Below are positions 8,171 through 52,527 of a stretch of 64,000 nucleotides of DNA, piece by piece. The stretch's first letter is position 1, and each line of letters starts with the position of its first letter. Source of the stretch: Candidatus Woesebacteria bacterium UBA5941 (lineage in GTDB: Bacteria > Patescibacteriota > Microgenomatia > UBA8517); the NCBI GenBank assembly GCA_002430735.1, contig DJCV01000003.1, forward strand, positions 21,142 through 85,141, given 5' to 3'. The notes under the pieces were generated by a model. The model was not told the origin of the DNA and did not search any database. It was given only the letters and a program-made list of their open reading frames with translations. The position numbers were made by a program, and so were the translations under genes.

Positions 8171-8778
8171 TATGCTGCAATTGCGACTGCAAATGTATTT
8201 TGTGCATAAACGCACCCCCACACATATTCCCCCCCAGTTAACAATTTTTTGTGACCTAATGTGTTTTCCCACAATGAAACTGACTCTTCCGGGGTGCTAG
8301 CACCTGATACAAGAAATTCAGATAAGTTGTATTTCTCAAAAATCCATTCTAAATCTGGCCGCTCATCTGGTAGCTTGCTAAACCCTTCATGTCCATCAAG
8401 CTTTCCAAGTTGCAATAACTGATTTAAACGAATAGATGCAATGGTACACAATTCATCTCGTTGAGAGAGGGCGCTCACACCAAGCTGGACACGCCGCTTA
8501 TTCACAGATTCCCAGAGCTGAGGACCATTCCATTCAATAGCTTGAGGCTTAGCGGTAGCGACAGCAGTTTTTGGAGTTGGAGAAGGTCCAGGTGTTGATT
8601 TTTTGTATGACACTGCACCATTTCGCACCAAGGCCATGAGGTTATCAATTTCTCCTTGCGACATGTCAGAACCTTGACTATATCCGCGAATAAACCCGAT
8701 GTCATACGTCCTTTTTAAAAGAACAGTAAACGCAATAATTCCAAGGCTTAAGAAAATAATGTATAAAAATATCCTCAT
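8167..8778 (-). CDS. CAP/SCP (YkwD-like) domain secreted protein
   Basis: 203 aa, N-terminal TM/signal, C-terminal ...NTLGHKKLLTGGEYVWGCVYAQ resembles CAP-domain GH..IL motif. Confidence 0.45.
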   Translation of the reverse strand: MRIFLYIIFLSLGIIAFTVLLKRTYDIGFIRGYSQGSDMSQGEIDNLMALVRNGAVSYKKSTPGPSPTPKTAVATAKPQAIEWNGPQLWESVNKRRVQLGVSALSQRDELCTIASIRLNQLLQLGKLDGHEGFSKLPDERPDLEWIFEKYNLSEFLVSGASTPEESVSLWENTLGHKKLLTGGEYVWGCVYAQNTFAVAIAAY

Positions 8779-9215
8779 AAATCAAGAGTAATCGTTACTG
8801 GGCCATCAAGACTCGTCGTTATTGCCATATAGTTTCCAAAACTTCCTGTTTCAACTACTAAGTCTTTTCGTAATTCGGCAATTAGTAATTCATACAATTC
8901 TCGTGCACGTTTCGGTTCTTCTGCTTCTAAAAATGATGGGCGATTTCCATCTTTTGTATTTGCCAACAATGTGAATTGAGACACGACGAGTAGCGGTAAT
9001 GAGAGGTCTTTTGAAGAGAATGCCATTTTTCCAGAATCATCATCATGTAATCTGATCTTCTTTAATTTGTCTGCAAGCGTGCGAACTTTCTGCTCAGTAT
9101 CACCCTTTGCAATTCCCACTAAAATAAACAGCCCTCTTTCAATTGAACCTACCACTGCATCCGATTCAACCGCTCGCACACTTGCTGATTTCACGCGTTG
9201 GATAACTACCTTCAT
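8775..9215 (-). CDS. dtd: D-aminoacyl-tRNA deacylase
   Basis: MKVVIQRV... SQFTL motif; ORF-track 5' extension (to 9317) runs into RNase P RNA, so start assigned to ATG at 9213-9215. Confidence 0.85.
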   Translation of the reverse strand: MKVVIQRVKSASVRAVESDAVVGSIERGLFILVGIAKGDTEQKVRTLADKLKKIRLHDDDSGKMAFSSKDLSLPLLVVSQFTLLANTKDGNRPSFLEAEEPKRARELYELLIAELRKDLVVETGSFGNYMAITTSLDGPVTITLDL

Positions 9216-9238
9216 GTAAGCGTATTGTACCAAACACA

Positions 9239-9262
9239 GAAAAACCCCACCGGTGAGGTGAG
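9239..9262 (-). terminator. intrinsic terminator at 3' end of RNase P RNA
   Basis: Minus-strand RNA CCUCACC-ucacc-GGUGGGG (7-bp stem incl. one G-U) followed by UUUUU. Confidence 0.45.
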
Positions 9263-9590
9263 GTCTCTCATGTGGGAGGTGTGTAAGCCAGGTTCTGTTT
9301 TTCGTGTGTAAACACACAATCGGTAATCATCTATCTAAGCCCTGAGCTTCTGAGCGATTCGGGAAAGAGACCGTACTTTAACGCTCAAATCGCAGGTTGC
9401 AGCGGGGGGGATTGCCCTTTTCACCCTCTATCTTGAGTTAACAAGCGAGTTGTAGTCTCTGTTGCTCTAACCAGCGGTTACCCGTCTTAGGACTGAACCT
9501 AAGCACCCTCTCTTTCAGCTGCCTGGACTTTCCTCCACGTAAACGTGGTGATTACCCATCCTCCACTGGTAGTATACCACAAGACGGTGA
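9240..9590 (-). ncRNA. rnpB: RNase P RNA (bacterial type A-like); ends approximate
   Basis: Minus strand contains universal P4 strands GGAGGAAAGUCCAGGC (plus 9521-9536) and ACAGAACCUGGCUUACA (plus 9283-9299), plus GGGUGAAAAGGG (J11/12-like) between them; no protein ORF. Confidence 0.75.
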
Positions 9591-36897: not shown

Positions 36898-36962
36898 TCC
36901 CTAGGCAACTCCAAACTTTCCTAAAACTCCTGAGCAAGAAACAGCTTCATCAGTTAGGTCGA

Positions 36963-36991
36963 ATTATATCAAAGCAGCGTACCGCATGCAA
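36963..36991 (-). promoter_or_regulatory. consensus sigma70-like promoter for the rplC-... operon
   Basis: Minus strand TTGCAT (36986-36991) - 17 nt - TATAAT (36963-36968). Confidence 0.5.
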
Positions 36992-37019
36992 GGTAAGCCT
37001 CAAACTGCATCAGAAAGTG

Positions 37020-37048
37020 TTGAAATCTGCTCTTTTTTGTCCTATAAT
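37020..37048 (+). promoter_or_regulatory. consensus sigma70-like promoter for small acidic ORF A
   Basis: TTGAAA (37020-37025) - 17 nt - TATAAT (37043-37048); AGGAGG SD at 37068-37073, 5 nt before ATG. Confidence 0.5.
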
Positions 37049-37078
37049 TCCATGCTCAGCTAAAAACAGGAGGTTTTC

Positions 37079-37324
37079 ATGTTTCACCACGAAGCTCAAG
37101 AGATTTTGGCCAGTGTCATCTTGCAATACCAGATTGAAGACCCAGAACTGATCAATGAGCTGACCGGGCACGCAGGCGAATTTGTCAGGATTAACGGCAA
37201 CCCGCTCTCTCGCACCGAGGAAGACCACAACCAATGGGAAGCCCGTAAAGTGTCGATGTCACTCGTTGATCCACTCTCGCAGTTTATGCGGGACTTTATG
37301 GAAGAGGTGCTTGACCTGAGGTAG
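37079..37324 (+). CDS. small acidic hypothetical protein A (81 aa)
   Basis: ORF with perfect promoter, AGGAGG SD and downstream intrinsic terminator; MFHHEAQEILASVILQYQIEDPELINELTGHAGEF... Confidence 0.5.
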   Translation: MFHHEAQEILASVILQYQIEDPELINELTGHAGEFVRINGNPLSRTEEDHNQWEARKVSMSLVDPLSQFMRDFMEEVLDLR

Positions 37325-37342
37325 CCTCCACACTGGCAAATA

Positions 37343-37372
37343 GCGATCGTTTTTATAAACGGTCGCTTTTTT
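37343..37372 (+). terminator. intrinsic terminator after ORF A
   Basis: GCGAUCGU-uuuuauaa-ACGGUCGC 8-bp stem followed by UUUUUU. Confidence 0.6.
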
Positions 37373-37384
37373 CATGCCATAGTA

Positions 37385-37413
37385 TTGTAAAACCACCATT
37401 TATGTCTTATAAT
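37385..37413 (+). promoter_or_regulatory. consensus sigma70-like promoter for small acidic ORF B
   Basis: TTGTAA (37385-37390) - 17 nt - TATAAT (37408-37413); AGGAGG SD 37435-37440, 5 nt before ATG 37446. Confidence 0.5.
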
Positions 37414-37445
37414 ACTAATCCAAATAGGCCATAGGAGGAAAATGA

Positions 37446-37643
37446 ATGTTGGGCCTACAGTATCTCGCGGAACAGATTGCAGATGAGACAAAATTGGAAG
37501 GAGCAGCTCTTGCAGATTTTCGAACACTGGTCGGGAAAGTTCTGGAAATGGGACAGAAACCGGAAGAGTGTACCTTCAATGGTACACATCCTGAAGCCCG
37601 TCAAGCGTTCGAAATGCTCACCGCAGAACTTTGTCCATCGTAA
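37446..37643 (+). CDS. small acidic hypothetical protein B (65 aa)
   Basis: MLGLQYLAEQIADETKLEGAALADF...KPEECTF...; own promoter, SD and terminator. Confidence 0.5.
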   Translation: MLGLQYLAEQIADETKLEGAALADFRTLVGKVLEMGQKPEECTFNGTHPEARQAFEMLTAELCPS

Positions 37644-37657
37644 TCCTTTTTCCTGAA

Positions 37658-37684
37658 GGTCAATCACACCGATTGGCCTTTTTT
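37658..37684 (+). terminator. intrinsic terminator after ORF B (overlaps convergent tlyA-like stop codon)
   Basis: GGUCAAUC-acacc-GAUUGGCC 8-bp stem + UUUUUU. Confidence 0.55.
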
Positions 37685-38240
37685 ATGGCGTAAGAAGCGC
37701 TAAAAATTCTTTATTCTTTCCACGTTCTCCTAAAATAGGAGATTCCACGAAACCTTCAATGGTTATTCCCAAATCAGTAATATCTTTCTTTGTCTTATCT
37801 AAAACCTCATTCATTTTTTCTTCAATAAGTCTTCCCTTTTGTAAGTATTCCTTCGGTGCTTCATAGTGCGGCTTAATTAGGGCTATAATACGGCCTTTTT
37901 CTTTGAGGTTCTTTACAGCACTCGGAAGAATTAATTTCTGTGGAGTCCATGCAACGTCAATTGTAATAAGATCCATTTTTTCAGGGAGCTCGACATGAAG
38001 GGCATTCGTGCGTTCCATAACAACGACCCTTGGGTCATTTCGTAAGGTCCATGCCAGTTCTCCATAGGCTGTGTCTACTGCATATACTTTTTGCGCACCG
38101 TTTTTAAGAAGACAATCGGTGAATCCGCCAGTTGAACAACCGAAATCAGCACAGATTAAATTAGACACTGAAATCGTAAAGGTATCTAATGCATGCTGCA
38201 ATTTTTCACCCGCACGGGAGGCAAATTGTTTGGTTTCCAT
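37683..38240 (-). CDS. tlyA: TlyA-family (FtsJ-like) rRNA 2'-O-methyltransferase without N-terminal S4 domain
   Basis: SAM-binding block ICADFGCSTGGFTDCLLKNGAQKVYAVD; start at METKQFASRAGEKL (ATG complement 38238-38240) with TATAAT 7 nt upstream. Confidence 0.7.
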   Translation of the reverse strand: METKQFASRAGEKLQHALDTFTISVSNLICADFGCSTGGFTDCLLKNGAQKVYAVDTAYGELAWTLRNDPRVVVMERTNALHVELPEKMDLITIDVAWTPQKLILPSAVKNLKEKGRIIALIKPHYEAPKEYLQKGRLIEEKMNEVLDKTKKDITDLGITIEGFVESPILGERGKNKEFLALLTP

Positions 38241-38323
38241 TGAGTGATTATATCGCATGTTTGACTATGGGAATTTGCAGTTATACACTGCCCATATCAA
38301 GCAGTAACAGTGAGGATCTCATC

Positions 38324-38521
38324 ATGATTGATGATGTTCAGAGTACAGACGAACAACTGTCGAGTGAAGACAAAAAACTATTGAAAGGGCTTATCGGAAC
38401 ATACGATAACCCAGAAGAGACATTCGAGTTTTTGCGCCTGTATCGTAAAGCGTCTGCTTACATTCGGGATTTGCTTAACCACTACGGCGCCGAATTAGTT
38501 GCAAACGATGGGAATGAGTAA
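38324..38521 (+). CDS. small acidic hypothetical protein C (65 aa)
   Basis: MIDDVQSTDEQLSSEDKKLLKGLIGTYDNPEETFEF...; GUGAGGA SD-like 7 nt upstream; TTGACT -35-like at 38261-38266; shares PEE-TF motif with ORF B. Confidence 0.4.
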   Translation: MIDDVQSTDEQLSSEDKKLLKGLIGTYDNPEETFEFLRLYRKASAYIRDLLNHYGAELVANDGNE

Positions 38522-38561
38522 CAGATTGTATTGTAATGGGGTCACCGACTTGGTGATCTCA

Positions 38562-40168: not shown

Positions 40169-40325
40169 GAAGCAATCCTCCTTAGTTGTTACTAGGATGA
40201 GGCTATTATCTTAAAGCCAGCCGAGCTTGTCAACACCCTAAACAAAGGAGGCTCCATTTGGTATGTCTTCTTCAGCCAAGAATGCTATACTATGGGAATT
40301 CAAATCGTTCATAAGGAGGACTGAA

Positions 40326-41297
40326 ATGATTCGATTTCGAGGAGCACTTTTTATCTTAATGGTCGTGATACTGCAATCTTTGTCTGTGAGCGCTCAGTGG
40401 CAAGGCCAAATAACCGGCGTGTTGACTGACAATATCGTCACGTTTACTGGATACAGCTTGCCGGCAAATGCAGAAGTCCTTGTGTCTCGGACTTTTCAGG
40501 GATCATGCATGGACCCTGATTTTCAAAATCGTTCAATTGGCCAAACATCTAATATCGGGAACTTAGTCTATACGAATGAAGTCCTGTGTGCCGGAGTGTA
40601 TGAATACCGGTTCACAATTGGCTCACTCCTATATCCTGTTCAAATCCAGTATGTGCGTCCTGCTCCCAACTTGGCAGACTTACCGCGTGGCTGCGGCAGC
40701 AAGAACCTAATACAACTGGGGTCACTCGTTCAACCGACGCGCGATGTGGCATTTTGGATGCTGCCAACCACTGGTGCTACGTCGAACAACGGGAATCCAC
40801 TTCGAACTATTACGAGTGGCGTACAAGTGAGGGTCATTGACGGCCCAGTTTGTAACGCAGACGGCATTTGGTGGAGGGTTGATTACCGGTTTACCTTTGG
40901 GGAAGGCATTCCATCGCAAAATATTGGATGGATCCGTGAATCAGCAAAAGGTGTGACACAGCTTGCTGTTGTAGCAAACAGCACTGTGGAGTTGCCAAAC
41001 GTCGTGACGCTGTCGACAACCATACCACAGGCAACCAGCTTGCTCTCTGTGCAAGGAATCAAAATGCGCTCTGCACCATCAGTGAAGGATGGCGAAAGCG
41101 TGCGGGTCGATGCATTAAAGACTGGTGATGGGCCGGTTACGATATTGGGACAGAACGGGAACGGAGCCTTTATCCAGGTACAAAAAGGTGCCATCGTTGG
41201 ATGGATTTGCACCCATTTAGCGGACACAAACGTCATTGAGTTGAATATCGACCTGCCGGTCACCGATGAATCAATGAATGAATGTTTCGTAAAGTAG
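40326..41297 (+). CDS. secreted protein with two bacterial SH3 (SH3b)-like domains
   Basis: Start at MIRFRGALFILMVVILQSLSVSAQ (signal peptide) with AAGGAGGA SD 5 nt upstream; SH3b-like blocks ...VQVRVIDGPVCNADGIWWRVDY...GWIRE and ...GESVRVDALKTGDGPVTILGQNGNGAFIQVQKGAIVGWICTHL. Confidence 0.6.
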   Translation: MIRFRGALFILMVVILQSLSVSAQWQGQITGVLTDNIVTFTGYSLPANAEVLVSRTFQGSCMDPDFQNRSIGQTSNIGNLVYTNEVLCAGVYEYRFTIGSLLYPVQIQYVRPAPNLADLPRGCGSKNLIQLGSLVQPTRDVAFWMLPTTGATSNNGNPLRTITSGVQVRVIDGPVCNADGIWWRVDYRFTFGEGIPSQNIGWIRESAKGVTQLAVVANSTVELPNVVTLSTTIPQATSLLSVQGIKMRSAPSVKDGESVRVDALKTGDGPVTILGQNGNGAFIQVQKGAIVGWICTHLADTNVIELNIDLPVTDESMNECFVK

Positions 41298-41353: not shown

Positions 41354-43513
41354 TTATGCTTCTTTGCCTTTTGCAGCAACGATTTGAGCCGTTACGTTAC
41401 TTGGAACTTCCTCGTAGTGAGAAGGTTCAACATAAGAGCTTGCTCGACCTTGAGAGATAGATCGTAGTTTCGTTGCATATCCGTGTAATTCAGCCAATGG
41501 TACCGTTCCCGTAATAACCGTAAACATACCCTTCTTTTCAGTTCCTGAAATATTAGCTCGCTTACTGGAAAGATCTCCAATAATGTCTCCCATAAATTCG
41601 TCAGGGGTTGAGACTTCAATCTTCATAATAGGCTCAAGAAGTGCCATATCAGCGTTCTTTGCGGCTTCTTGTAGTCCGAGAGAACCTGCGATCTTAAAGG
41701 CCATTTCAGATGAGTCGACATCGTGGAAACTTCCATCGTATACAACAACCCGAATATCAACGAGTGGATACCCAGCCATAATTCCGTTTTCAAGTTTCTC
41801 TTTAACACCCTTTTCAATAGGTCCAATAAACTCCTGAGGGATTGCTCCTCCTTTAATCTCACTAACGAATTCAAATCCTTCTCCACGACCACGAGGTTCG
41901 ATGCGAAGCCAACAGTGGCCGTATTGCCCTCGACCTCCAGTTTGGCGAACGTATTTACCTTCTCCAGTTGAAATTTTTCGGATTGTTTCTTTGTAGGCAA
42001 CCTGAGGAGCTCCGGTTGTCGCTTCAACATTAAACTCTCGCTTCATTCGATTGACCAAGACTTCAAGCTGCAACTCTCCCATTCCGGAGATAATTGTTTG
42101 ACCAGTTTCAGGATTACTTTTGATTCGGAATGTTGGATCTTCGTCAGCGAGCTTGTTCAAAGCGAGTCCCATTTTTTCTTGGTCAGTCTTCGTTGCTGGT
42201 TCAATAGCAAGAGAGATAACAGGTTCTGGGAATGAAATAGATTCCAGAAGAATTGGGTGGGCTTCATCACACAAGGTATTTCCTGTTGTGGTGTCTCGAA
42301 GTCCAACAACTGCCACGATTTCTCCAGCATATGCCTCTTCAACAAGTTCTCGCTGATCAGCGTGGAGCAATACGAGTTTACCGATGCGCTCTCGTACTTG
42401 TCGACTTGCGTTATAGACTTCTTGTCCGGTCTTCAGCTTTCCAGAATAAATACGAACGTAGAGAAGGCGTCCTACGTGAGGATCAGTCATAACTTTGAAA
42501 CCAAGACCTGAGAATGGAGCTTCATTTTTTCGTTCTCGAATTTCTTTTTCGCCAGTTTTTGTGCTTACTCCTTCAACTGGTGGCACATCAACAGGGGATG
42601 GAAGATATTCAACAACCGCATTCAAAAGCAGTTGTGTGGTAGCTGTTCGATTGTCTCCTCCTAAGATAGGGAAGAACTTACCGCTAATAACACCTTTTCG
42701 AATAGCTCTTTTAATATCAAGCTCTGAAAGTTCTTGTCCTTCTAAATATTTGTTTAATGCCTCATCGTCAAATTCAGCAACGCGCTCAATCAATTGAGCT
42801 CTATATTTCTCAGCCATTTCCTTAATATCAGCTGGAATTTCTTCTTCTGTTAACTGAGTATCTTCAATAGCTTTATAGGTGTATGCCTTCATTTTGATCA
42901 AATCGACCATTCCTCGAAGTGAATGTTCAAATCCAACTGGAATTTGAATTGGAGCAGTATTTGCACCTAGTCGTTCATCAATAGACTTTAAGCTTCCTTC
43001 AAAGTCAGCTCCGATTAGATTTAACTTATTCAAAATACAAATACGAGGAACTTTATATTTGTCAGCTTGTCGCCAAACCGTTTCTGATTGAGATTCAACT
43101 CCTGTTCGTCCATCAAACACCATGACGGCTCCATCTAAAACTCGGAGTGATCGTTCAACTTCCGCCGTAAAGTCAATGTGGCCTGGAGTATCAATAATGT
43201 TAATTCGATAGTGTCCTGCCTCAACTGAAGTCGTTTCTTTTATATCCCAGAAGGTGGTAATCGCAGCTGAAACAATGGTAATTCCTCTCTCTCGCTCTTC
43301 TTCCATCCAGTCGGTTGCAGTTGTTCCATCGTCAACAGACCCTAATTTATAGGTCTTTCCTGTTTCATAGAGAATACGCTCAGTAGTAGTCGTTTTACCG
43401 GCATCAATGTGAGCAATAATTCCAATATTACGAATACGATCGTAATCAACTAAACGATCTTTCGTAACTGTGCTTACAATCGCGCTTTTCTTTTTTGCGG
43501 CTTGTGCTGCCAT
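41354..43513 (-). CDS. fusA: elongation factor G
   Basis: AHIDAGKTTTTERILY..., start set at MAAQAAKKKSAIVSTV (ATG complement 43511-43513). Confidence 0.95.
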   Translation of the reverse strand: MAAQAAKKKSAIVSTVTKDRLVDYDRIRNIGIIAHIDAGKTTTTERILYETGKTYKLGSVDDGTTATDWMEEERERGITIVSAAITTFWDIKETTSVEAGHYRINIIDTPGHIDFTAEVERSLRVLDGAVMVFDGRTGVESQSETVWRQADKYKVPRICILNKLNLIGADFEGSLKSIDERLGANTAPIQIPVGFEHSLRGMVDLIKMKAYTYKAIEDTQLTEEEIPADIKEMAEKYRAQLIERVAEFDDEALNKYLEGQELSELDIKRAIRKGVISGKFFPILGGDNRTATTQLLLNAVVEYLPSPVDVPPVEGVSTKTGEKEIRERKNEAPFSGLGFKVMTDPHVGRLLYVRIYSGKLKTGQEVYNASRQVRERIGKLVLLHADQRELVEEAYAGEIVAVVGLRDTTTGNTLCDEAHPILLESISFPEPVISLAIEPATKTDQEKMGLALNKLADEDPTFRIKSNPETGQTIISGMGELQLEVLVNRMKREFNVEATTGAPQVAYKETIRKISTGEGKYVRQTGGRGQYGHCWLRIEPRGRGEGFEFVSEIKGGAIPQEFIGPIEKGVKEKLENGIMAGYPLVDIRVVVYDGSFHDVDSSEMAFKIAGSLGLQEAAKNADMALLEPIMKIEVSTPDEFMGDIIGDLSSKRANISGTEKKGMFTVITGTVPLAELHGYATKLRSISQGRASSYVEPSHYEEVPSNVTAQIVAAKGKEA

Positions 43514-43521
43514 AGGCAATG

Positions 43522-43550
43522 ATTTTATCAATATTTGGAGGTTAAAGCAA
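43522..43550 (-). promoter_or_regulatory. sigma70-like promoter for fusA (leaderless arrangement)
   Basis: Minus strand TTGCTT (43545-43550) - 17 nt - TAAAAT (43522-43527), 8 nt before ATG. Confidence 0.4.
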
Positions 43551-43555
43551 TGAGC

Positions 43556-43601
43556 CGACAAAAAAAGACCTCTCGGGGTCTAGTGAAAAGCTCCGAGAGG
43601 A
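43556..43601 (-). terminator. intrinsic terminator ending the small-peptide transcript just upstream of fusA
   Basis: Minus RNA 11-bp stem CCUCUCGGAGC.../...GCUCCGAGAGG class (CCUCUCGG...CCGAGAGG) followed by UCUUUUUUU. Confidence 0.6.
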
Positions 43602-43708
43602 AGGATGAATGGCAAAGCGTATAGAACGATGGGAACAAGAATCACAAGAAACAAAATGATAAATATCACAAGTTGTTTCGTCGGGAACTTATTCCCGTAC
43701 CTGTCCAT
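43580..43708 (-). CDS. small hydrophobic peptide 2 (42 aa; below ORF-track cutoff)
   Basis: MDRYGNKFPTKQLVIFIILFLVILVPIVLYALPFILPLGAFH; start overlaps upstream stop in TAATG. Confidence 0.3.
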   Translation of the reverse strand: MDRYGNKFPTKQLVIFIILFLVILVPIVLYALPFILPLGAFH

Positions 43709-43824
43709 TACAGACAAGCTCCATACGCTTCGGCGTTACCACAAAATGCACCGATGACAGTCGAAATGGCTAGCAGTAACACAACAAAGCAAAAGAACAA
43801 CAACTGACGTCTATTCTTGAACAT
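43708..43824 (-). CDS. small hydrophobic peptide 1 (38 aa; below ORF-track cutoff)
   Basis: MFKNRRQLLFFCFVVLLLAISTVIGAFCGNAEAYGACL; GGAG 6 nt upstream of ATG. Confidence 0.3.
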   Translation of the reverse strand: MFKNRRQLLFFCFVVLLLAISTVIGAFCGNAEAYGACL

Positions 43825-43853
43825 GGACTACTCCATTTCTTGATACTTTACCT

Positions 43854-43862
43854 ATTATATCA
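43854..43862 (-). promoter_or_regulatory. extended -10 promoter (TGaTATAAT) for small-peptide operon
   Basis: Minus strand TGATATAAT ~30 nt upstream of peptide-1 ATG. Confidence 0.4.
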
Positions 43863-43910
43863 AAATATGGGCTATTTTGGCCGATTATTGATTTATGGTA
43901 CTGTGTGCTA

Positions 43911-44342
43911 ATGAAAGTAAAGATAAAACGATTCGACTCGTCACTCCCCATTCCTGCATATCAAACCAATGGGGCTGCAGGCTTTGACTGCTATGCGCGA
44001 GAAACAATAGTAATTCCAACGCATACAATCGCATACATCCCCCTCAACATTGGTCTTGAGATTCCAGAGGATTGTTGGGTACTTGTTGCAGCGCGCGGAT
44101 CGACGCACAAAATGGGAATTATGCCAATTAATGGGATTGGTGTTGGAGATTGGGATTTTTGCGGGGATAACGACGAGTATAAATTTGCCGTTTATAACTT
44201 TACCGATAATGAAGTAACCATTGAAAAAGGAACACGTGTCGCTCAGATGATTATTATGAAATATGAACAAGTTGAGCTTACTGAGGTAGACCACTTTGAA
44301 CACAAAGACCGCGGGGCATTTGGTAGTACTGGGAAAAAATAG
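43911..44342 (+). CDS. dut: dUTP diphosphatase
   Basis: MKVKIKRF...AAGFDCYA (dUTPase motifs)...RGSTHKMGI; ATG at 43911 (ORF-track start at 43905 is GTG). Confidence 0.85.
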   Translation: MKVKIKRFDSSLPIPAYQTNGAAGFDCYARETIVIPTHTIAYIPLNIGLEIPEDCWVLVAARGSTHKMGIMPINGIGVGDWDFCGDNDEYKFAVYNFTDNEVTIEKGTRVAQMIIMKYEQVELTEVDHFEHKDRGAFGSTGKK

Positions 44343-44343
44343 G

Positions 44344-44385
44344 CAAAAAAATCCCCCGCCAAACACTGGTCGAGGGACAACGATG
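44344..44385 (-). terminator. intrinsic terminator of the rpsL-rpsG transcript/3' element (overlaps dut stop on opposite strand)
   Basis: Minus RNA CCCUCG...CGGGGG stem followed by AUUUUUUUGCC. Confidence 0.5.
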
Positions 44386-44593
44386 GATCAGAGAAACATG
44401 CGGGCGGTGTGTACAAGACGTTGGTCATTAGACTAGCTGAATAGACAAGCTATCCCAACCGCGGTCCCCGCATTCTGATCAGACTTGCCAGTCATCAGAT
44501 GAACGCTTTCCAAGTCCAAAAAAGCGTCAGACTAGATGTAGTGTACTTGATAAAAGCAAAAATGGAGAGAAGAAAAATAAAACTTTTAGGTAT
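44386..44593 (-). ncRNA. candidate structured RNA element / long 3' UTR after rpsG containing 16S rRNA-like islands
   Basis: Minus strand: ...CUGAUCAGAAUGC...CCGCGGU...(hairpin insert)...CUUGUACACACCGCCCG, co-linear with 16S h43/h28/decoding-site segment; no ORF; several stable hairpins. Confidence 0.3.
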
Positions 44594-45073
44594 TTACCAC
44601 TTAAAGTGAGCAAATGCTTTGTTTGCTTCAGCGACTTTTTCGACGTCTTGCTTCTTTTTCACTGCAGGACCTTCGTTTTTAAGTGCGTCTAAAATTTCAG
44701 CTGCTAATTTTTCAGCAAATGTGTGGTATTCGGAGTTACTTCGTGACCGTGCTGCTTCAATAAGCCATCGAACACCTAATGAATCTTGGCGTCGTCCTCG
44801 AACTTGAACGGGAACTTGATAGGCAGCTCCACCGATTCGTCGAGCACGAACTTCCATAACGGGTCGAATGTTGTTTAAAGCTCGTGTGTATACAACAACT
44901 GCATCTTCGCCTGTTTTTTCAGCAATAAGCTTTAAGGCGTCATATACTTCGCGCTGAGCCACGCTTTTCTTTCCATCATACATTGCGCGATTTATAAGTT
45001 TCGCGATCATTACGTTGTTGTATACGGCGTCTCCGTTTACTTTACGTGGTCTAACAGCTCCTGGTCTTGGCAT
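44594..45073 (-). CDS. rpsG: 30S ribosomal protein S7
   Basis: 159 aa S7. Confidence 0.95.
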   Translation of the reverse strand: MPRPGAVRPRKVNGDAVYNNVMIAKLINRAMYDGKKSVAQREVYDALKLIAEKTGEDAVVVYTRALNNIRPVMEVRARRIGGAAYQVPVQVRGRRQDSLGVRWLIEAARSRSNSEYHTFAEKLAAEILDALKNEGPAVKKKQDVEKVAEANKAFAHFKW

Positions 45074-45080
45074 ATATTAA

Positions 45081-45503
45081 TTAAGCAGCTTGTGCTGATC
45101 CTTTCTTGGTTCCGTACTTAGATCGTCCGTTTACTCGTCCGACGACCCCTTTAGTATCATATTTTCCTCGTACAACCTTATACTTTACTCCAGCTAAATC
45201 TTTCACACGTCCGCTTCTGACAAGCACAATTCCGTGCTCAGCGAGATCATGTCCTTCACCTGGAATATATGCAGTTACTTCCATTTTGTTTGAAAGTCTG
45301 ACGCGAGCAACTTTTCGCAAAGCTGAATTAGGTTTTCGAGGAGTCATTGTTCGGACAGACAAGATCACTCCTCGTTTGAATGGAGAAGTGACCGTGCTAT
45401 AACGTCGTTTTTTGGAATTAAACCACTGCTTAATTGCTGTACTGCGAGCTTTCGCTTTCGTAGTTGTTCTTCCTTTTTTGACCAGTTGTGCGATTGTTGG
45501 CAT
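45081..45503 (-). CDS. rpsL: 30S ribosomal protein S12
   Basis: [12 protein letters not shown]... Confidence 0.95.
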
Positions 45504-45513
45504 TTTTTGTCTC

Positions 45514-48500
45514 TTATACCATCATCCGTGCGCGTTCAGGGTCTACAGGAATGAGGCGTCCGATGATAACATTTTCTTTGAGTCCAATCAAACGGTCTCG
45601 CTTACCCATCAATGCACTTGTGGCCAAAACGTCAGTTGTCTGTTCGAATGATGCTGCTGACAACCAGCTCTCGGTGAGCAATGCGCGCTTTGTGATTCCC
45701 ATAATGGTTGGTCGTGCAGTTGCTGCTTCCCCACCTTGAGCAATCGTCTTTTCGTTCTCTTCGTCAAAGCTTGCTTTATCAACTGTCTCACCTGGCAAGA
45801 GTGGTGTGCTTCCACCTGTCGCGATCTTCACCTTGTCGCTCATCTTTCGAACGATAACTTCAAAGTGACGGTCGTTAATTGGAATTCCTTGTGATTCGTA
45901 TACTGCTTGTAACTCATTCAACAGATATTCTTGAGCTGGGATTAAGCCTCGAATTGCGAGTACTTCCTTCACATCCAAGTATCCAGATGAGAGTTGAGCA
46001 CCAGCTTCAACGAGTTGTCCATCTTCAACCATGAGCTTACTTGTCTTTGGAATCACAAATTCTCGTGTCTCTTGTGGCTTCACATTTACTGATTCAATAA
46101 TGACTTTCCAACCGTCTTCAAGTTCTTCAACCTTAACCTTACCTGCGATGTCAGTTAATGGTGCCATGCTCTTTGGAATACGTGCTTCAAAGAGTTCCTC
46201 TACTCGAGGCAAACCTTGGGTCACGTCGACTCCAACCACACCGGCTGCGTGCTTAGTTCGGAGCGTAAGCTGTGTTCCTGGTTCTCCAATTGATTGAGCA
46301 GTTAATACTCCAACTGGTGTTCCCATCTCAGCAATTTGCTTGTTTGAGAGATCCCATCCGTAACATGCTGCACACATTCCGTATCGGCTTTCACAACTTA
46401 ATGGTGATCTCACAAATACTGATGGAATTTCAGCTTGATCAATTTCCTTAGCTGCTGGCTCATCGATAATCGTTCCCTTAGCTACAATTACTTTTCCATC
46501 CTTGGTTGTAATATCCTCGAGTGAAATTCGACCTGCGATTCGTCGAGCATATACATTGGTTCGGAAGTTTCGAGTAATCGTAATACCTTCAGTTGTTCCA
46601 CAATCTTCTTCTCGAATGATCACATCATGAGCTACGTCAACGAGTCGTCGAGTTAAGTATCCAGCATCAGCTGTCTTAAGCGCGGTATCAGTCAATCCTT
46701 TTCGAGATCCACGAGAGCTTGTTACGTATTCAAATACTGAGAGTCCTTCTCGGAAGTTACTCTTAATAGGCAATTCAACGATCTTTCCGAGTGGATCAAC
46801 AACGAGTCCTCGCATACCAGCGATCTGTTTGATCTGATCTCGTGATGTACGTCCAACTTTAGCGTCAATAACGATTCTGATTGAGCTAGTTGGGTCTACT
46901 AAGTCCCATGTCTTGTCAGCAATTTCTTCAGTTGTTTCAATCCAAACTGCTTCACTCAATCGTTTCTTTTCTTCCTTCGTGATCAACCCTTCGGCAAAAG
47001 TTGTTTCGATTTCAGCAACTTTTTGGTTAGCAATATCAATCATCTTAGATTTCTCAGGGTGAACTACTGCGTCTGAAATTCCGAATGAAAGCCCTGAATA
47101 AGTTCCTCCAACGAATCCAATATCTTTAATATCATCAATCATTTGAATTACTCGATCATGAGGGACTTTAGTAAATCCTGTCATAATAAGATCCTGGATA
47201 AGACCTGAAACCATGCTCTCATTCACAAATCCAAATTCAGCTGGGAGCACTTCATTAAAGAGAATTCGTCCTACAGTTGTTTCAATAATGTCAGTTCCAA
47301 GTTTGACCTTGATTAATTGTCTTAAGAACAACTTTCCTGTTTGATAAGCAAAGATTGCTTCGTTTTTATCAGAATAGATCGTGCTACCAGCCTCAATTCG
47401 AGGGTCTACGCTTGTGTAGTAGTACACTCCCAATGCAATTTCCTTAGATGAAGGAGCACTGGTTGGTGATCCGTCAGCAGGCTTCAACAAGTTTCGATCT
47501 GAAATAACTCTCTCTTTAACTTCTTTGATTGCGCGCTCAGAGAGTGGCAAGTGCACAGCCATTTGGTCTCCATCGAAGTCAGCTCCGAATGCTTTACATA
47601 CTGCAGGGTGCAATCGAATAGCGCTTCCTTCAATTAAGATTGGATAGAATGCTTGGATACCGAGCTTGTGCAATGTAGGAGCACGGTTGAGTAACACTGG
47701 GTGATTCTTTGTAATCTCTTCCAAGATGTCAAAGACTTCACTTGGTCGTCGTTCCAAAAGGTTCTTCGCACTCTTCACATTTGGTGCAATTCCTCGAACA
47801 ATCATTTCTCGAAGCACGAATGGCTTAAAGATCTCAAGTGCCATTTCCTTCGGAAGTCCACATTGATTAAGCTTCAATTCTGGTCCTACAACGATAACTG
47901 ATCGTCCAGAGTAGTCAACACGCTTACCCAATAAGTTCTGTCGGAATCGTCCTTGCTTCCCTTTCAACATGTCTGAAAGTGATCGTAATGGTTGCTTTCC
48001 GCGTCCTCGTCGAGTTGCTTTTCGTTGAGAGGCGTCAATCAAAGAGTCAACAGATTCCTGCAACATTCGTTTTTCATTTCTCAAAATGATTTCAGGAGCT
48101 CCAAGATTAATTAAGTGCTTTAATCGGTTATTGCGATTAATAACACGTCGGTATAAGTCGTTTAAGTCGCTTGTTGCGAAACGTCCTCCTGAAAGTTGCA
48201 CCATCGGTCGCAAATCTGGTGGCAAGATTGGAAGAACCTTCATAACGGTCCATGTTGGAGAAACGTGTCCTGATCGCATACCGTCAACCAACTTCAATCG
48301 GCGAGTTAATTTAATGTATCGGCTACCTTTTCCTTTGACCGCATCGATTTCTTCTTTGATCTCCTTAGAGAGGTCATCAAGTTTCAATGCTGCGAGTGCT
48401 TCATAAATAGCTTCTGCACCCATCTTGACGTCTACGAATGATTCAACTCCGTAAGAGCTGAGTTTGTCGAATTCATCTTCTGACAAGAATCCAAATTTTC

Positions 48501-51500
48501 GAACGTCTTTGACAATTCCAATAAGCTTTCCGAATAGTTCTTCAGTCTTCTCGAGAGTTACTTTCTCTTCTTCAGAAAGGCTTGCTTCTTTCTTTCGAGT
48601 TTCGAGCTCAACTTCAGAAAGGGCGAGTGCTAATTGTTCTTGACCTTTAATCTTCTCTTCAGCTTTCTTTCGTCGAACTTCACCATCTTCTTTAACGAGC
48701 GCAAGTCGTTCTTTGTAGAGCTCTTTCACTTCGTCAACTTTCTCTCCTCGTGATTTTTCAAGTGTCTTAATAGCTTCAGTTCGGCCTGCTTCATCAACAT
48801 TCATCACAAGGTATCGAGCGAAGTACACAACTTGCTCAATTGCACGAGGTGCGAGATCCAAAAGGAGAGATACCTTTGAAGGTGCCCCTTTAAAGAACCA
48901 TACGTGCATAACAGGTGCTGCCAAGCTAATGTGTCCCATGCGTTCTCGTCGAACACGAGACTCAGTTACTTCAACTCCACATTTGTCACAAACAACTCCC
49001 TTATATCGAATTCTCTTGTATTTTCCACAATAACATTCCCAATCCTTTGAAGGTCCGAAGATTCGTTCGTCAAAGAGACCATCTTTTTCACTCTTTAATG
49101 TTCGATAGTTAATAGTCTCAGGCTTTGTAACTTCTCCACGGCTCCATGCACGAATTTCTTCAGGTGAAGCGAGTTTGATTCTCAATCCTCCAAAGTCTTC
49201 TAAGTTTGAAAGCAGAGAGAGCGGATCAACGAGTTCTGCTTTTTTGTCAGTCAATTTTTCAACGATATCTTCTCCTGCTTCGTTTTTAGGTTGAGCATTT
49301 TCGATTTGGATAGAAAGTCCCAATGAATTCAATTCTCGAATTAATACTTTAAAGCTTTCAGGTACTTTTGCTTCAGGAATTGGTTCACCTTTCACAATTG
49401 CACCAAATGCTTGTGCACGTCCTACGATATCGTCGGACTTAATAGTCAACATTTCTTGTAATGTATGTGCAGCTCTGTGTGATTCTAATGCCCAGACTTC
49501 CATTTCTCCCAATCGTTGTCCACCCATTTGAGCTTTTCCTCCAAGAGGTTGTTGTGTCACGAGTGAGTATGGTCCAGTTGATCGAGCGTGAGTCTTATCC
49601 TCAATCATGTGCTTCAGCTTCAAGATGTATCCAATTCCAACAACAGTGTCTTCAGCAAATTGTTCTCCTGTTCGTCCATCAAAGAGTCTAATTTTTCCAC
49701 TTCGTGGAAGTCCAGCGTTTTCAAGTTCTTGAGAGATGACATCATCATCCATGTTGTCAAATACTGGAAGTGCTCCCTTTTCTCCATTCGCAGAGAGTGC
49801 CCAACCCAAATGTGCTTCCATAAGTTGTCCCAAGTTCATACGTGCGAGAACTGAGAGTGGAGAAATAATAATATCTACAGGTGTTCCATCTGGAAGATAT
49901 GGCATGTCTGCAGCATTCATGACTTTAGCAATAACACCTTTGTTTCCGTGTCGTCCGGCGAGTTTGTCTCCAACCATGACTTTTCGGATTTGTGCAACTT
50001 TAACGATAATCGTCTTCATAACACCAGGCCCAAGCTCGTCGCCACCTTCTTTGTCCAAGACTTGGACATCAACAACGATTCCTTCTTCTCCGTGAGGTAC
50101 TCGAAGTGAGGTGTCTCGAACTTCTCGTGCTTTCTCTCCAAAGATTGCGCGGAGCAATCTTTCTTCAGCATTTAATTCTGTTTCTCCTTTTGGAGCAATT
50201 TTTCCAACCAAAATGTCGTTTGGTCCAACTTCTGCACCAAGTACAACAACTCCGTCTTCAGCGAGGTTTGCAAGTTCCATTTCAGAAACGTTTGGAATAT
50301 CGCGAGTCAATTCCTCAGGCCCAAGCTTTGTTTCAACGAGGTCAGCTTGATATTCCTTAATGTGGATCGAAGTTAACAAATCATCCTTGACGAGTCTGTC
50401 TGACACAATCAAGGCGTCTTCAAATCCGTATCCTTCGAATGAAGCGTAAGCGACTACTAAGTTTGTTCCGAGCGCGAGTTCTCCTTCTTCAGCAGAAGGT
50501 CCATCAATTAAAAGGTCTCCTTTTTTAACTTTTTGTCCAACGACAACTCGAGCTTTTTGGTTGTATGAAGTTGATTGTGTTGTTCTCTTGAACTTTGTAA
50601 GTCTGTAAATAGCTCGTTCTCCGTCTTCAGCCATTTCAACAGCACTTCGAACTGGTTTTACTTGCTTTTTATCAAGTCGGACTTCGATTCGGTTTCCATC
50701 TACGTAATCAACAACTCCGTCGAAATCGCTTGTAACAACATGTCCCATTGACTCAGCAATTGCACCTTCCATACCAGTTCCAACGATTGGACTTTGAGGA
50801 GCAACAAGCGGAACAGCCTGACATTGCATGTTAGATCCCATAAGCGCTCGATTACCTTCGTCGTGAGCGAGGAATGGAATAAGAGATGCTGATGCACCGA
50901 ACACTTGTCGAGGAGTTACGTCAATGTAATCAATAACGTCTGATGGTCCTTCGAGGAAGGCGTCATTAAATCGGTATGGAACTCGATCGTCCATAACAAT
51001 TCCTTCTTCGTTTACCGTCACGCCACTGTGAGTGATGTGATATTTAGCATCATCATCTGCGGTAAGATAGGTTACTTCGTCTAATACTTTCACTACTGTC
51101 TTACCACCTTTTTCTGTCTTTTCTACTTTTCGGTATGGAGCTTCTAAGAAACCGAATTCATTAATTCGTGTGTAGAGAGCCAAATAGGTAACAAGTCCGA
51201 TGTTTGGTCCTTCAGGAGATCTGACTGGGTCAATACGACCATATTGAGACGCATTAATGTCTCGAATAGAGAAGCTTGCTCGTTCACGGTTAATACCACC
51301 AGGTCCAAGCACTGAGACGCGGCGCAAGTTATCAACCTCAGAAAGAGGGTTTGTGTTATCTAAAATAGTAGATAACTGATTGCTTCGGAAAAATTCATTA
51401 ATTGATGCAATCAATGGTCGAGCATTAATTAAGTTTTGTGGAAGTGGTTTGTCTTCAGGTGCAATCAAGCTCATCTTTTCTTTCACTGATCTCTCAAGTT

Positions 51501-52527
51501 TCAACAAACCTGCCCGGAACGCATGAGTTGCCACTAATTCTCCCACTCGTCGAAGTCTTCGATTGCTTAAGTGATCAATATCATCAACGTGTCCGTGTCC
51601 GTTTTGAAGTCCAATAAGGTATGAAATGGTTGCCAAAATATCTTGCTTGGTGAGTACCCAATTTTCTCGTTCGTTCGCAACTGTTAAATCAAGTCGTTTG
51701 TTGATCTTGTATCGGCCAACTTTTCCTAAGTCATACCGTCGGGTATCTAAGAACAAGCTTTCAAAGAGAGCTTGAGCGTTATCAATAATGGCTGGTTCCC
51801 CAGGTCGGAGCTTTCGATAGATTTCCAAAAGAGCTTCGTCTTGAGTCTTTGTTGGGTCTTTTTCAATGGTCTTTTTAATGAATCGGTGGTTTTTGTCAGT
51901 ATCAATTTCTGAGAAAGCTTCTTGAATTTCTTGATCGCTTTCAATTCCCATTGCACGAAGAAGGGTAGTTGCAGAAACTTTTCGTCGCTTATCAATTCGA
52001 GCTGAGATTACATCGTTCTTGCTGATTTCGAATTCGAGCCATGATCCATGAAGTGGTCGAACTTCAGCCATGTAAAGCATTCGTCCAGTTGCACGATCTC
52101 GTGCACCAGAGAAGTAAATACCAGGTGATCGAACGAGCTGGTTAATAACTGCGCGTTCAATTCCGTTAATGATGAATGTTCCGGCAGTTGTCATTTGTGG
52201 GATATTTCCCATAAAGACTTCCTGTTCGACTGATTCACCAGTCTTCATGTTGATTAATGTAGCGACTAATTTAAATGGAGCAGCAAAAGTAATACCTTTT
52301 TCTTCTGCATACTTTGGAGTGATTTGTGGTTCTTCTAATGTGTGGCTGCCTAAAAGCAATTGCCAATTTTTTCCTGTAAAGTCGTTAATTGGAGAAACCT
52401 GTGCAATTTCCTCTGCAATTCCTTCATTTAAAAACCAATCCCAGCTTTCTCTTTGTACGAGAGATAAATCAAGTTCTGGTAGGTTTTTCTCTGTTTTTCC
52501 GAAATTGCGTCGTTGGGTTTTTGCCAT
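45514..52527 (-). CDS. rpoBC: fused DNA-directed RNA polymerase beta-beta' (RpoB-RpoC) polypeptide, 2337 aa
   Basis: N-terminus matches beta; C-terminal half matches beta' (Zn finger [35 protein letters not shown] catalytic loop); no stop at junction (~49180-49310). Confidence 0.9.

What the first reader, a model, noticed from the sequence alone, without database searches (positions are those of the whole stretch)
44343..44593. 16S rRNA-like islands (h43/h28/decoding-site segment) in a structured element immediately 3' of rpsG (S7)
The roughly 250 nt between the rpsG stop and dut encode no ORF. On the rpsG strand they read ...CUGAUCAGAAUGC GGGGA CCGCGGU [palindromic AGCU hairpin insert] ...CGU CUUGUACACACCGCCCG CAUG..., and they end in a stem plus U7 terminator (44344-44385). 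The 17-mer CUUGUACACACCGCCCG (plus 44401-44417, reverse complement) is identical to the universal 16S 1392R/1406R primer region, the h28 3' strand plus the start of the decoding site. GAUCAGAAUGC and CCGCGGU match the upstream 16S h43 segment (E. coli ...GGAUCAGAAUGCCACGGUGAAUACG...CCUUGUACACACCGCCCGUCA) in the same order and orientation. A chance 17-mer match in 64 kb is about 1e-6. This cannot be a real rRNA gene because it sits between rpsG and dut. The mimicked segment is exactly the 3'-major-domain junction that S7 binds in the ribosome, and in E. coli S7 autoregulates str mRNA via an rRNA-like site (established). Inference: this may be an S7-binding rRNA mimic, or a decoy for a decoding-site factor, sitting in the rpsL-rpsG 3' UTR or expressed as a separate sRNA. 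Alternatively it is a relic 16S fragment.
Basis: partly seen in the sequence, partly recalled or inferred. Interest (0 to 1): 0.7.

Follow-up and report, generated by a model that had tools for sequence, protein, structure and literature searches.

The report
Orphan 16S-like scrap after rpsG
A 251-base spacer after the ribosomal protein S7 gene of an uncultured CPR bacterium carries a perfect 17-base copy of a universal 16S rRNA sequence, but no relative has it and nothing supports an S7-binding role, so it is most likely an rRNA-derived sequence scrap inside an ordinary 3' UTR with a terminator.

Summary
The sequence facts hold. CTTGTACACACCGCCCG (16S 1389-1405) lies at 44401-44417(-), GATCAGAATGC (E. 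coli h43 loop) at 44470-44480(-), and a hairpin plus U7 terminator at 44345-44377(-). The spacer sits between convergent rpsG and dut in a Microgenomates/Woesebacteria-like CPR genome.

The interpretation as a structured S7-binding rRNA mimic is not supported:
- Rfam SSU models do not hit the region.
- The 16S segment 1373-1388 is replaced by 40 unrelated bases, and the h43 stem is not kept.
- Folding energies are not exceptional.
- None of 72 independent related loci (531 kb) contains the islands. That includes 65 rpsG-downstream spacers and one relative (L078) with the same rpsG/dut/fusA order but no spacer.
- A covariance model of the core finds only itself.
- The known S7 operator position (rpsL-rpsG spacer) is only 7 nt here.

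The 17-mer spans the rRNA-intron homing hot spot of CPR and other bacteria (16IS9 at about 1400; rns-1396). This suggests an origin as a by-product of 16S-targeted DNA breakage and repair, which is an inference.

Best reading: a lineage-specific 3' UTR plus intrinsic terminator containing a 16S-derived scrap. Interest is low. The genome's own 16S could not be reached, and all nine assemblies of the organism are identical.

The parts
44594..45073 (-). rpsG (ribosomal protein S7, 159 aa), last gene of the rpoBC-rpsL-rpsG transcription unit
   Evidence: ORF. Pfam Ribosomal_S7, E=2e-53. Homologues found.
44536..44593 (-). AU-rich head of the 3' UTR (26% G+C), with no recognisable feature
   Evidence: Sequence; composition.
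44502..44528 (-). Hairpin H1: 10-bp stem, 7-nt loop, no U-tract after it. Flanked by AGUCUGAC (44526-44533) and CUGAUGA (44492-44498).
   Evidence: Folds (z=-2.2 for 44494-44540). Coordinates.
44470..44480 (-). Island 1, GAUCAGAAUGC. Identical to the E. coli 16S h43 loop (about 1356-1366). It lies inside the palindrome UCUGAUCAGA (44474-44483) and forms the 5' arm of a long-range helix (44467-44480).
44458..44464 (-). Island 2, CCGCGGU. Matches the 3' strand of h43 in many bacteria, but its pairing partner is absent upstream.
44418..44457 (-). A 40-nt segment with no 16S similarity. It takes the place of 16S 1373-1388 and contains a weak hairpin (GGUUGG...CCAAC, 44420-44460; z=-0.4).
44401..44417 (-). 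The 17-mer CUUGUACACACCGCCCG, equal to 16S 1389-1405 (h28 3' strand plus the start of the decoding site). It covers -8..+9 around the bacterial rRNA-intron site rns-1396 / CPR 16IS9. Its first 12 nt are predicted unpaired; the last 5 lie in the long-range helix.
   Evidence: PMC11270868. PMC13190283.
44386..44404 (-). 3' arm of the long-range helix: CCCGCAU (44398-44404), a 5-nt bulge, and UCUGAUC (44386-44392). It pairs with 44467-44480.
   Evidence: Inverted repeats I5 and I6; MFE folds.
44345..44377 (-). Intrinsic terminator of the rpsL-rpsG transcript: stem-loop 44352-44377 followed by U7 at 44345-44351. The tail abuts the dut stop codon.
   Evidence: There is also a weak Rfam match to the terminator part of NsiR1.
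43905..44342 (+). dut (dUTPase), convergent with rpsG and inserted between rpsG and fusA
   Evidence: Pfam dUTPase, E=2.5e-21. Homologues are all CPR at 61-69% identity. Gene calls.

Best explanation
The 251-nt spacer is a lineage-specific, non-conserved 3' untranslated region of the rpoBC-rpsL-rpsG transcript.

- Supported working part: its only supported functional feature is the hairpin plus U7 intrinsic terminator at its end. This stops transcription before it runs antisense into the convergent dut gene.
- Origin of the 16S-like islands: they are a short scrap of 16S rDNA-derived sequence that became part of this insertion-prone rpsG-fusA spacer. They are not an rRNA gene and not an S7 operator.
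- Possible source of the scrap: the perfectly kept 17-mer spans the conserved block that CPR and other bacterial rRNA introns and LAGLIDADG endonucleases use as a homing site (about 1396-1400). A plausible source is illegitimate repair or capture of DNA from a broken 16S gene, or a short conversion patch.

Shown: the sequence identities, the terminator, the absence from relatives, and the insertion-prone locus.
Inferred: the origin of the scrap and its lack of function.
For: - Exact 17-mer, with 0 expected by chance. Island 1 is moderately significant.
- The core has 50% G+C against 41 +/- 4% for the other spacers. This fits rRNA-derived or foreign sequence rather than native spacer.
- The terminator is predicted by three methods.
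- No Rfam family matches.
- Fold energies are unexceptional.
- Homology with the nearest relatives stops at the rpsG stop and resumes at the fusA start.
- The rpsG-fusA spacer ranges from about 40 nt to over 2.4 kb, with different inserted genes in different relatives.
- L078 has rpsG and dut tail to tail with no spacer.
- No island appears in 65 downstream spacers or in 531 kb of CPR loci. There are no structural homologues.
- No other copy was found in the metagenome or viral collections, or in phage or plasmid records.
- Literature places a recurrent intron/homing-endonuclease site inside the 17-mer (PMC11270868; PMC13190283).
Against: - A neutrally decaying 16S fragment should not keep 17/17 and 11/11 identities next to segments with no similarity. 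The patchiness needs a chimeric origin, a recent origin, or selection.
- The two islands are joined by a 14-bp long-range helix. Its 3' arm is not 16S-like, which looks more designed than accidental.
- The core's G+C equals that of the RNase P RNA gene, as expected for a functional RNA.
- No donor, intron or endonuclease gene was found in the window.
- The genome's own 16S could not be examined, so the proposed origin is untested.
- Absence from relatives is weak evidence, because neutral spacers are saturated at this divergence (fusA is 81% identical at the DNA level).
Confidence: 0.58

Rival explanations
1. S7-binding rRNA mimic. Excess S7 binds the 16S-like islands in the 3' UTR of its own mRNA and lowers rpsL-rpsG expression, for example by destabilising the transcript.
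For: - The element is on the rpsG transcript, upstream of its terminator.
- It contains the h43-loop sequence, which lies in the S7 neighbourhood of 16S (ribosome structure knowledge).
- E. coli S7 does use an rRNA-like mRNA site (PMC10931766).
Against: - Not conserved in any of 65 relatives' rpsG-downstream spacers or elsewhere in their str loci.
- Absent in L078, which has the same gene order.
- The known operator position is upstream of rpsG. Here that spacer is 7 nt.
- The h43 stem is not preserved and 1373-1388 is missing.
- The best-kept piece (1389-1405) is not the S7 site (established knowledge).
- No 3'-UTR r-protein operator is known in bacteria.
Confidence: 0.04
2. Functional trans-acting or decoy RNA. 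The 3' UTR, or a small RNA processed from it that shares the terminator, displays the 16S 1389-1400 strand in a loop closed by the 14-bp helix. It acts as a decoy or seed for a factor that recognises this strand. Candidates are an rRNA-modifying or rRNA-cleaving enzyme, the maturase/endonuclease of the 16S-1396/1400 intron, or complementary RNA.
For: - A long-range helix encloses a loop in which 12 nt of the 17-mer are unpaired, 15-30 nt upstream of a terminator. This geometry is typical of 3'-UTR-derived sRNAs.
- The core has RNA-gene-like G+C.
- The sharp boundaries of identity suggest selection on the 17-mer.
Against: - Fold z-scores are not significant.
- There is only one sequence, so no covariation can be assessed. 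No homologue was found anywhere searched.
- No promoter-like site lies in the spacer.
- No candidate partner gene was identified nearby.
Confidence: 0.1
3. Ectopic homing or landing site. At the DNA level, the 17-mer is an intron-less copy of the 16S-1396/1400 homing site. It is either a target for the CPR group-II-like/LAGLIDADG element or the footprint left by its ectopic insertion and loss.
For: - The 17-mer covers -8..+9 around rns-1396, with 18 of 22 positions identical to 16S around that site (sequence).
- CPR 16S genes often carry LAGLIDADG-encoding group-II-like insertions at about 1400, and Microgenomates are rich in such insertions.
- A hairpin lies 10 nt upstream of the site, as group IIC introns prefer (knowledge).
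Against: - No intron-like RNA was found by Rfam in the window at E<=1, and none in the element.
- No endonuclease gene is evident among the large ORFs (they were not scanned one by one).
- A cleavable site without flanking homology would be harmful if the enzyme were present.
- The conserved 16S block and the homing site coincide anyway, so the centring is confounded.
Confidence: 0.06
4. Pure coincidence. The spacer is unrelated to 16S, and the 17-mer and 11-mer arose by chance in a locally repetitive, palindrome-rich sequence. The match was then noticed because many windows and many well-known motifs were scanned.
For: - Island 1 is embedded in a local palindrome, and in a motif that recurs (AGUCURAY x3, UCUGAY x4).
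- Gapped alignments upstream and downstream of the 17-mer do not beat shuffles.
- Rfam is silent.
- A 17-mer match has a probability of about 1e-5 per window per motif, which is not negligible over very many windows and motifs (arithmetic).
Against: - 0 of 100 shuffles give the 17-mer even with 2 mismatches.
- It is absent, at <=2 substitutions, from 531 kb of other CPR DNA.
- A second, collinear, same-strand 11-mer has P about 0.005.
- A third collinear 7-mer is also present.
Confidence: 0.12

Closest known systems
E. coli str-operon S7 translational operator (rpsL-rpsG intercistronic RNA)
   Same: It lies on the same operon's mRNA, and its action is proposed to rest on resemblance to the S7 site of 16S rRNA (PMC10931766, PMC3616713).
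   Different: - The operator is upstream of rpsG and acts on coupled translation. Here the rpsL-rpsG spacer is 7 nt and the element is in the 3' UTR.
- It is confined to Gammaproteobacteria.
- The resemblance there is to the S7 footprint, whereas here the best-kept piece is the decoding-centre strand.
- The element here shows no conservation.
Orphan or partial rRNA gene fragments in bacterial genomes (rRNA-derived pseudogene scraps)
   Same: A short stretch identical to a conserved rRNA block outside any rRNA operon. It is single-copy, not conserved in relatives and not recognised by rRNA covariance models.
   Different: It is unusually short and patchy (17 + 11 + 7 nt, with a 40-nt unrelated filler), and it is embedded in a transcribed 3' UTR of a ribosomal-protein operon.
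Homing site of bacterial 16S group II / LAGLIDADG introns (rns-1396; CPR 16IS9 at about position 1400)
   Same: The 17-mer is the intron-less exon junction sequence (-8..+9) of that site (PMC13190283, PMC11270868).
   Different: The site is not in a 16S gene, and no intron or endonuclease was detected nearby. Identity to 16S ends 9 nt 3' of the site. Cleavage or homing here is untested.
Rho-independent (intrinsic) terminators between convergent genes
   Same: A G+C-rich 10-bp stem followed by U7 at the end of the rpsG transcript, abutting the stop codon of the convergent gene.
   Different: None for the terminator itself. The 190 nt upstream of it are the unexplained part.

Membership tests
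Bacterial SSU rRNA (Rfam RF00177) gene or pseudogene | Match to the SSU covariance model | tested here: not met
   No SSU hit at the gathering threshold, at E<=10 on 44250-44700, or at E<=1 on the whole window. Genuine 16S genes in L071-L077 score 280-1560 bits with the same tool.
Bacterial SSU rRNA (Rfam RF00177) gene or pseudogene | Contiguous collinear similarity beyond one conserved block | tested here: inconclusive
   Three collinear islands (11, 7 and 17 nt) are present. The 11-mer has P about 0.005. Gapped alignments give P = 0.04-0.75, and 16S 1373-1388 is replaced by 40 unrelated nt.
S7 autoregulatory mRNA operator | Located in the rpsL-rpsG intercistronic region, overlapping the rpsG translation start | tested here: not met
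   The rpsL-rpsG spacer is 7 nt. The element is 3' of rpsG. Position of the known operator is taken from PMC10931766 and PMC3616713.
S7 autoregulatory mRNA operator | Conservation of the site and its helices in related genomes | tested here: not met
   0 of 65 downstream spacers and 0 of 72 independent loci carry the islands. The covariance model finds no homologue. L078 lacks the spacer altogether.
S7 autoregulatory mRNA operator | Mimics the S7-contacting 16S elements (h29/h41/h43 junctions, about 1370-1380) | tested here: not met
   Only the h43 loop sequence is present. The h43 5' strand is absent and 1373-1388 is replaced. Which nucleotides S7 contacts comes from established structure knowledge, not from a tool.
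S7 autoregulatory mRNA operator | Binds S7 and represses expression | not testable with these tools
   Needs EMSA or filter binding, plus reporter assays.
Intrinsic transcription terminator | G+C-rich hairpin immediately followed by a U-tract on the transcribed strand | tested here: met
   Stem 44352-44377 (10 bp), then U7 at 44345-44351.
Homing site of 16S group II / LAGLIDADG intron (rns-1396 / 16IS9) | Sequence identity to the exon junction around the insertion point | tested here: met
   The 17-mer equals 1389-1405, i.e. -8..+9 around 1396|1397. The site coordinates come from PMC13190283 and PMC11270868.
Homing site of 16S group II / LAGLIDADG intron (rns-1396 / 16IS9) | Cognate intron or endonuclease present in the genome, and the site cleaved or occupied | not tested
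   There is no intron-like RNA in the 64-kb window. Cleavage needs an experiment.
Small self-cleaving ribozyme (hammerhead) | CUGANGA and GAAA cores with three helices and a NUH cleavage site in canonical register | tested here: not met
   CUGAUGA (44492-44498) and an upstream GUC are present, but stem I does not abut the core and stem II/GAAA are not formed (manual check). There is no Rfam ribozyme hit at E<=10.
Miniature inverted-repeat or repetitive extragenic element | Multiple copies in the genome, terminal inverted repeats and a target-site duplication | tested here: not met
   Inverted repeats exist, but the element is single-copy in the window, absent from relatives, and has no flanking duplication.

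The most novel reading that the evidence does not exclude
The rpsL-rpsG 3' UTR, or a small RNA cut from it, deliberately displays the universally conserved 16S 1389-1405 strand in a loop held by a 14-bp helix. It works as a molecular decoy or sensor for a factor that recognises this strand. Candidates are the maturase/homing endonuclease of the CPR 16S-1396/1400 intron, an rRNA-targeting toxin or modifying enzyme, or less likely S7. This would couple ribosomal-protein mRNA fate to rRNA-directed activities in a reduced CPR genome.
Probability: 0.08. Interest if true: 0.75.

Novelty: new member of a known kind. Interest (0 to 1): 0.2.

Why it matters
If the ordinary reading is right, the finding matters mainly as a caution. 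Perfect matches to universal rRNA blocks can occur outside rRNA genes in CPR genomes. They can mislead primer- or probe-based and k-mer-based rRNA detection, and they can be over-read as regulatory mimicry.

It also documents that the rpsG-fusA junction of the str operon is an insertion hot spot in Microgenomates. A scrap of the 16S intron-homing site has ended up there, which hints that rRNA-intron/endonuclease activity may leave footprints elsewhere in these genomes.

If the novel reading were true, it would be the first 3'-UTR rRNA mimic on a bacterial ribosomal-protein mRNA, and a handle on rRNA-intron biology in CPR bacteria.

Tried and rejected
- Genuine or fragmentary rRNA gene: rejected. 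There is no SSU/LSU model hit.
- Assembly chimera or contamination: rejected. Nine assemblies (NCBI, ENA, JGI, Logan) are 100% identical over up to 20.4 kb.
- Conservation in relatives: 62 GTDB species loci plus 5 closer metagenome contigs were searched by exact words, blastn, nhmmer and a covariance model. Nothing was found.
- Other copies elsewhere: the two-island pattern found only genuine 16S genes in metagenome contigs and nothing in viral contigs. There were no phage matches and only chance AT-rich plasmid matches.
- Element travelling with dut: rejected. dut homologues sit in other contexts, or next to rpsG without the element.
- Population variation as a test of constraint: impossible, because there are zero SNPs.
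- Hammerhead ribozyme (CUGAUGA + GUC), C/D-box-like boxes, integron attC (wrong order of the GTT/AAC arms), MITE, and a small ORF (the 61-aa and 46-aa mechanical ORFs run through the terminator and antisense dut): each was considered on the sequence and rejected.
- Riboswitch or attenuator reading (GGGGAC pairing alternatively with the terminator 5' strand): only 5 bp, so not pursued.
It is not in the window, the genome and metagenome scans were exhausted, and contig look-ups are limited to window-encoded proteins.
- The characterised CPR endonuclease I-ShaI turned out to target 23S, so it gives no information on this site.

Full report
**Context.** The window comes from a small Patescibacteria (CPR) genome of the Microgenomates/Woesebacteria group. 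The closest reference genomes found with the S7 protein are all Woesebacteria, Microgenomates or other Patescibacteria MAGs.

On the minus strand the gene order is:
- a fused rpoB-rpoC ORF (52527..45514);
- rpsL (45503..45081);
- rpsG (45073..44594);
- the 251-nt non-coding stretch in question (44593..44343);
- dut on the plus strand (43905..44342), convergent with rpsG;
- a 343-nt spacer;
- fusA (43561..41354).

**The observation.** The 17-mer CTTGTACACACCGCCCG is at 44401-44417 on the minus strand. None is expected by chance in the window, even with two mismatches. By the standard numbering this is 1389-1405.

GATCAGAATGC at 44470-44480(-) equals the E. coli h43 loop. CCGCGGT at 44458-44464(-) equals the 3' strand of h43 in many bacteria. 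The islands are collinear with 16S.

The end of the spacer is a convincing intrinsic terminator: stem 44352-44377 followed by U7 at 44345-44351.

The sequence is not an assembly artefact. Nine assemblies from NCBI, ENA, JGI and Logan, including a 942-kb contig, are 100% identical over up to 20.4 kb.

**How 16S-like is it really?**
- Rfam's SSU models do not report the region at the gathering threshold, at E<=10 on the 451-nt stretch, or at E<=1 on the window.
- In local alignment to real 16S genes only the 17-mer exceeds shuffles.
- Gapped alignments of the 110 nt upstream and of the downstream part are not robustly significant (P = 0.04-0.75 and 0.2-0.98).
- An ungapped test gives moderate independent support for island 1. 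The 11-mer match has P about 0.005 after taking the best of six references, and the 9-mer in two genuine 16S genes has P about 0.02 each.
- The stretch that corresponds to 16S 1373-1388 is replaced by 40 unrelated bases (44418-44457).
- The 5' strand of h43 is absent.
- Similarity ends sharply after G1405 (CCCG|CAUG against CCCG|UCAC).
- Island 1 sits in a perfect palindrome (UCUGAUCAGA), and the element is internally repetitive: AGUCURAY three times (0.01 expected) and UCUGAY four times (0.11 expected). Part of island 1 can therefore be explained locally.

Taken together, descent of at least the 17-mer, and probably island 1, from 16S is likely. The result is a patchwork, not a 16S fragment in the usual sense.

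**Structure.** Island 1 plus GGG (44467-44480) is complementary to CCCGCAU (44398-44404) and UCUGAUC (44386-44392). This gives a 14-bp helix with a 5-nt bulge. It encloses a weak hairpin and leaves 12 nt of the 17-mer unpaired.

Folding energies are unremarkable:
- z = -1.2 for the core;
- z = -1.5 for the whole on the rpsG strand;
- z = -2.2 on the opposite strand;
- z = -0.4 for the middle hairpin.

The core is 50% G+C, like the RNase P RNA gene of the same window (49.5%) and about two standard deviations above the other spacers (41 +/- 4%). No sigma-70-like promoter is predicted inside the spacer. The natural reading is therefore a 3' UTR.

**Comparative evidence.** None of the 62 species-representative loci (S7 44-74% identical) contains even the 10-mer ACACACCGCC. 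Blastn and nhmmer with the spacer find nothing.

The large protein collection holds no relative above 78% S7 identity other than the organism itself. In the nearest relatives (L066-L070: EF-G 89-90%, fusA DNA 81%), homology stops at the rpsG stop and resumes about 20 nt before the fusA start.

The rpsG-fusA spacer ranges from about 40 nt to over 2.4 kb and holds different inserted genes in different relatives. L078, a more distant relative (EF-G 78.5%), has the same fusA/dut/rpsG order, but the two stop codons are 1 nt apart and there is no element. Other dut homologues lie in unrelated contexts without the islands.

Further negative results:
- Across 65 rpsG-downstream spacers (48.7 kb), only the window has a 16S-like island of 16 nt or more.
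- The 17-mer is absent, at <=2 substitutions, from 531 kb of independent CPR loci.
- A covariance model of the core finds only itself, plus a weak touch on a true 16S gene, in 630 kb.
- A two-island pattern with a longer-than-16S gap found only genuine 16S genes in the metagenome collection and nothing in viral contigs.
- Phage and plasmid records gave nothing meaningful.

**The S7-mimic idea.** In E. coli, S7 represses by binding the rpsL-rpsG intercistronic RNA and blocking coupled translation. That RNA is confined to Gammaproteobacteria (PMC10931766, PMC3616713). Here the rpsL-rpsG spacer is 7 nt, and the element is in the 3' UTR.

From established ribosome structure knowledge (not tested here), S7 contacts h29, h41, h43 and about 1370-1380. 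The segment kept perfectly (1389-1405) is instead the h28 3' strand and decoding-centre strand, and the S7-proximal 1373-1388 is the part that is missing.

There is a caveat: no relative is close enough to share a homologous spacer.

**A better lead for the origin.** CPR 16S genes carry insertions in 48% of cases (56% in Microgenomates). One hot spot, 16IS9 at about position 1400, is occupied by group-II-intron-like elements that often encode LAGLIDADG_1 homing endonucleases and are thought to move by DNA-based homing (PMC11270868). The only bacterial group II/LAGLIDADG family described elsewhere is rns-1396 (PMC13190283).

The 17-mer covers -8..+9 around 1396|1397, so it is the intron-less exon junction of that site. 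This suggests that the scrap is a by-product of breakage and repair of a 16S gene at its homing site, captured in an insertion-prone spacer. This is inference only:
- no intron-like RNA was found in the window;
- the organism's rRNA genes could not be reached;
- the homing site coincides with the most conserved block anyway.

**Verdict.** The most likely description is a lineage-specific 3' UTR with an intrinsic terminator that contains a short 16S-derived patchwork (confidence about 0.6).

Rivals that cannot be excluded with a single, invariant sequence:
- a functional decoy or small RNA displaying the 17-mer (about 0.1);
- coincidence (about 0.12);
- an ectopic homing site (about 0.06);
- an S7 operator (about 0.04).

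Interest is low (0.2). The own-16S comparison and a CPR-wide census of extra-rRNA copies of the 17-mer would settle most of what remains.

Noticed in passing
window 9268-9566 (-): A bacterial class A RNase P RNA scores 99.1 bits, just under Rfam's gathering score of 100 (E=4.6e-29, full-length model match). It is therefore missed at the default threshold. The mechanical ORF 8775-9317 partly overlaps it.
   Followed up: partly
window 45514-52527 (-); also L066 1-4550: rpoB and rpoC are fused into one 2337-aa ORF carrying both Rpb2 and Rpb1 domain sets. The relative in L066 has a 2332-aa equivalent, so this is a lineage feature and not a sequencing error.
   Followed up: partly
window 43562-44593; L001 4481-5965; L066 5481-7910; L078 5899-6433: The rpsG-fusA junction of the str operon is an insertion hot spot in this clade. 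It holds dut (convergent) here and in the more distant L078, a reversed 315-aa ORF in L001, and a 91-aa ORF plus a 657-aa PQQ beta-propeller protein in L066. Other relatives have bare spacers of 40-430 nt. As a result fusA is uncoupled from rpsG.
   Followed up: yes
window 36915-38561 and 40263-41297: The r-protein super-operon has further interruptions. An FtsJ-type methyltransferase gene (37683-38258, -) and a 768-nt spacer with small plus-strand ORFs lie between rpsJ and rplC. A 344-aa SH3-domain protein gene lies on the opposite strand between tuf and fusA.
   Followed up: no
window 44386-44540 (-): The element contains recurring short palindromic motifs: AGUCURAY at 44526-44533, 44478-44485 and 44427-44434, and UCUGAY four times. 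It also has a CUGAUGA box (44492-44498) preceded by GUC and a hairpin, which superficially resembles a hammerhead core but does not fold as one. The motifs are unexplained.
   Followed up: partly
L063-L065, L083-L088 versus window 33911-54342: Nine assemblies of this organism, from at least eight samples or runs (JGI 3300005677/80/89, ENA ERZ761592/94/600, SRR2082606/09, GCA_002430615.1), are 100% identical over up to 20.4 kb. This indicates a clonal population. One JGI contig is 941,859 bp, probably the near-complete genome.
   Followed up: partly
window 44594-45073 (-): The rpsG start is annotated inconsistently in public gene calls: 138 aa in NCBI, Logan and some ENA records, against 159 aa in JGI and others. 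The 159-aa form aligns over its full length with relatives.
   Followed up: partly
L073 2868-2946, L074 491-569, L075 1200-1278: AT-rich SSU rRNA genes from human-gut metagenome contigs (about 685 bits to the bacterial SSU model, surrounded by many tRNA genes) carry a roughly 45-nt AT-rich expansion between h43 and the 1390 block. This is the same segment that is replaced in the element, so genuine SSU rRNAs can tolerate an insertion there.
   Followed up: no
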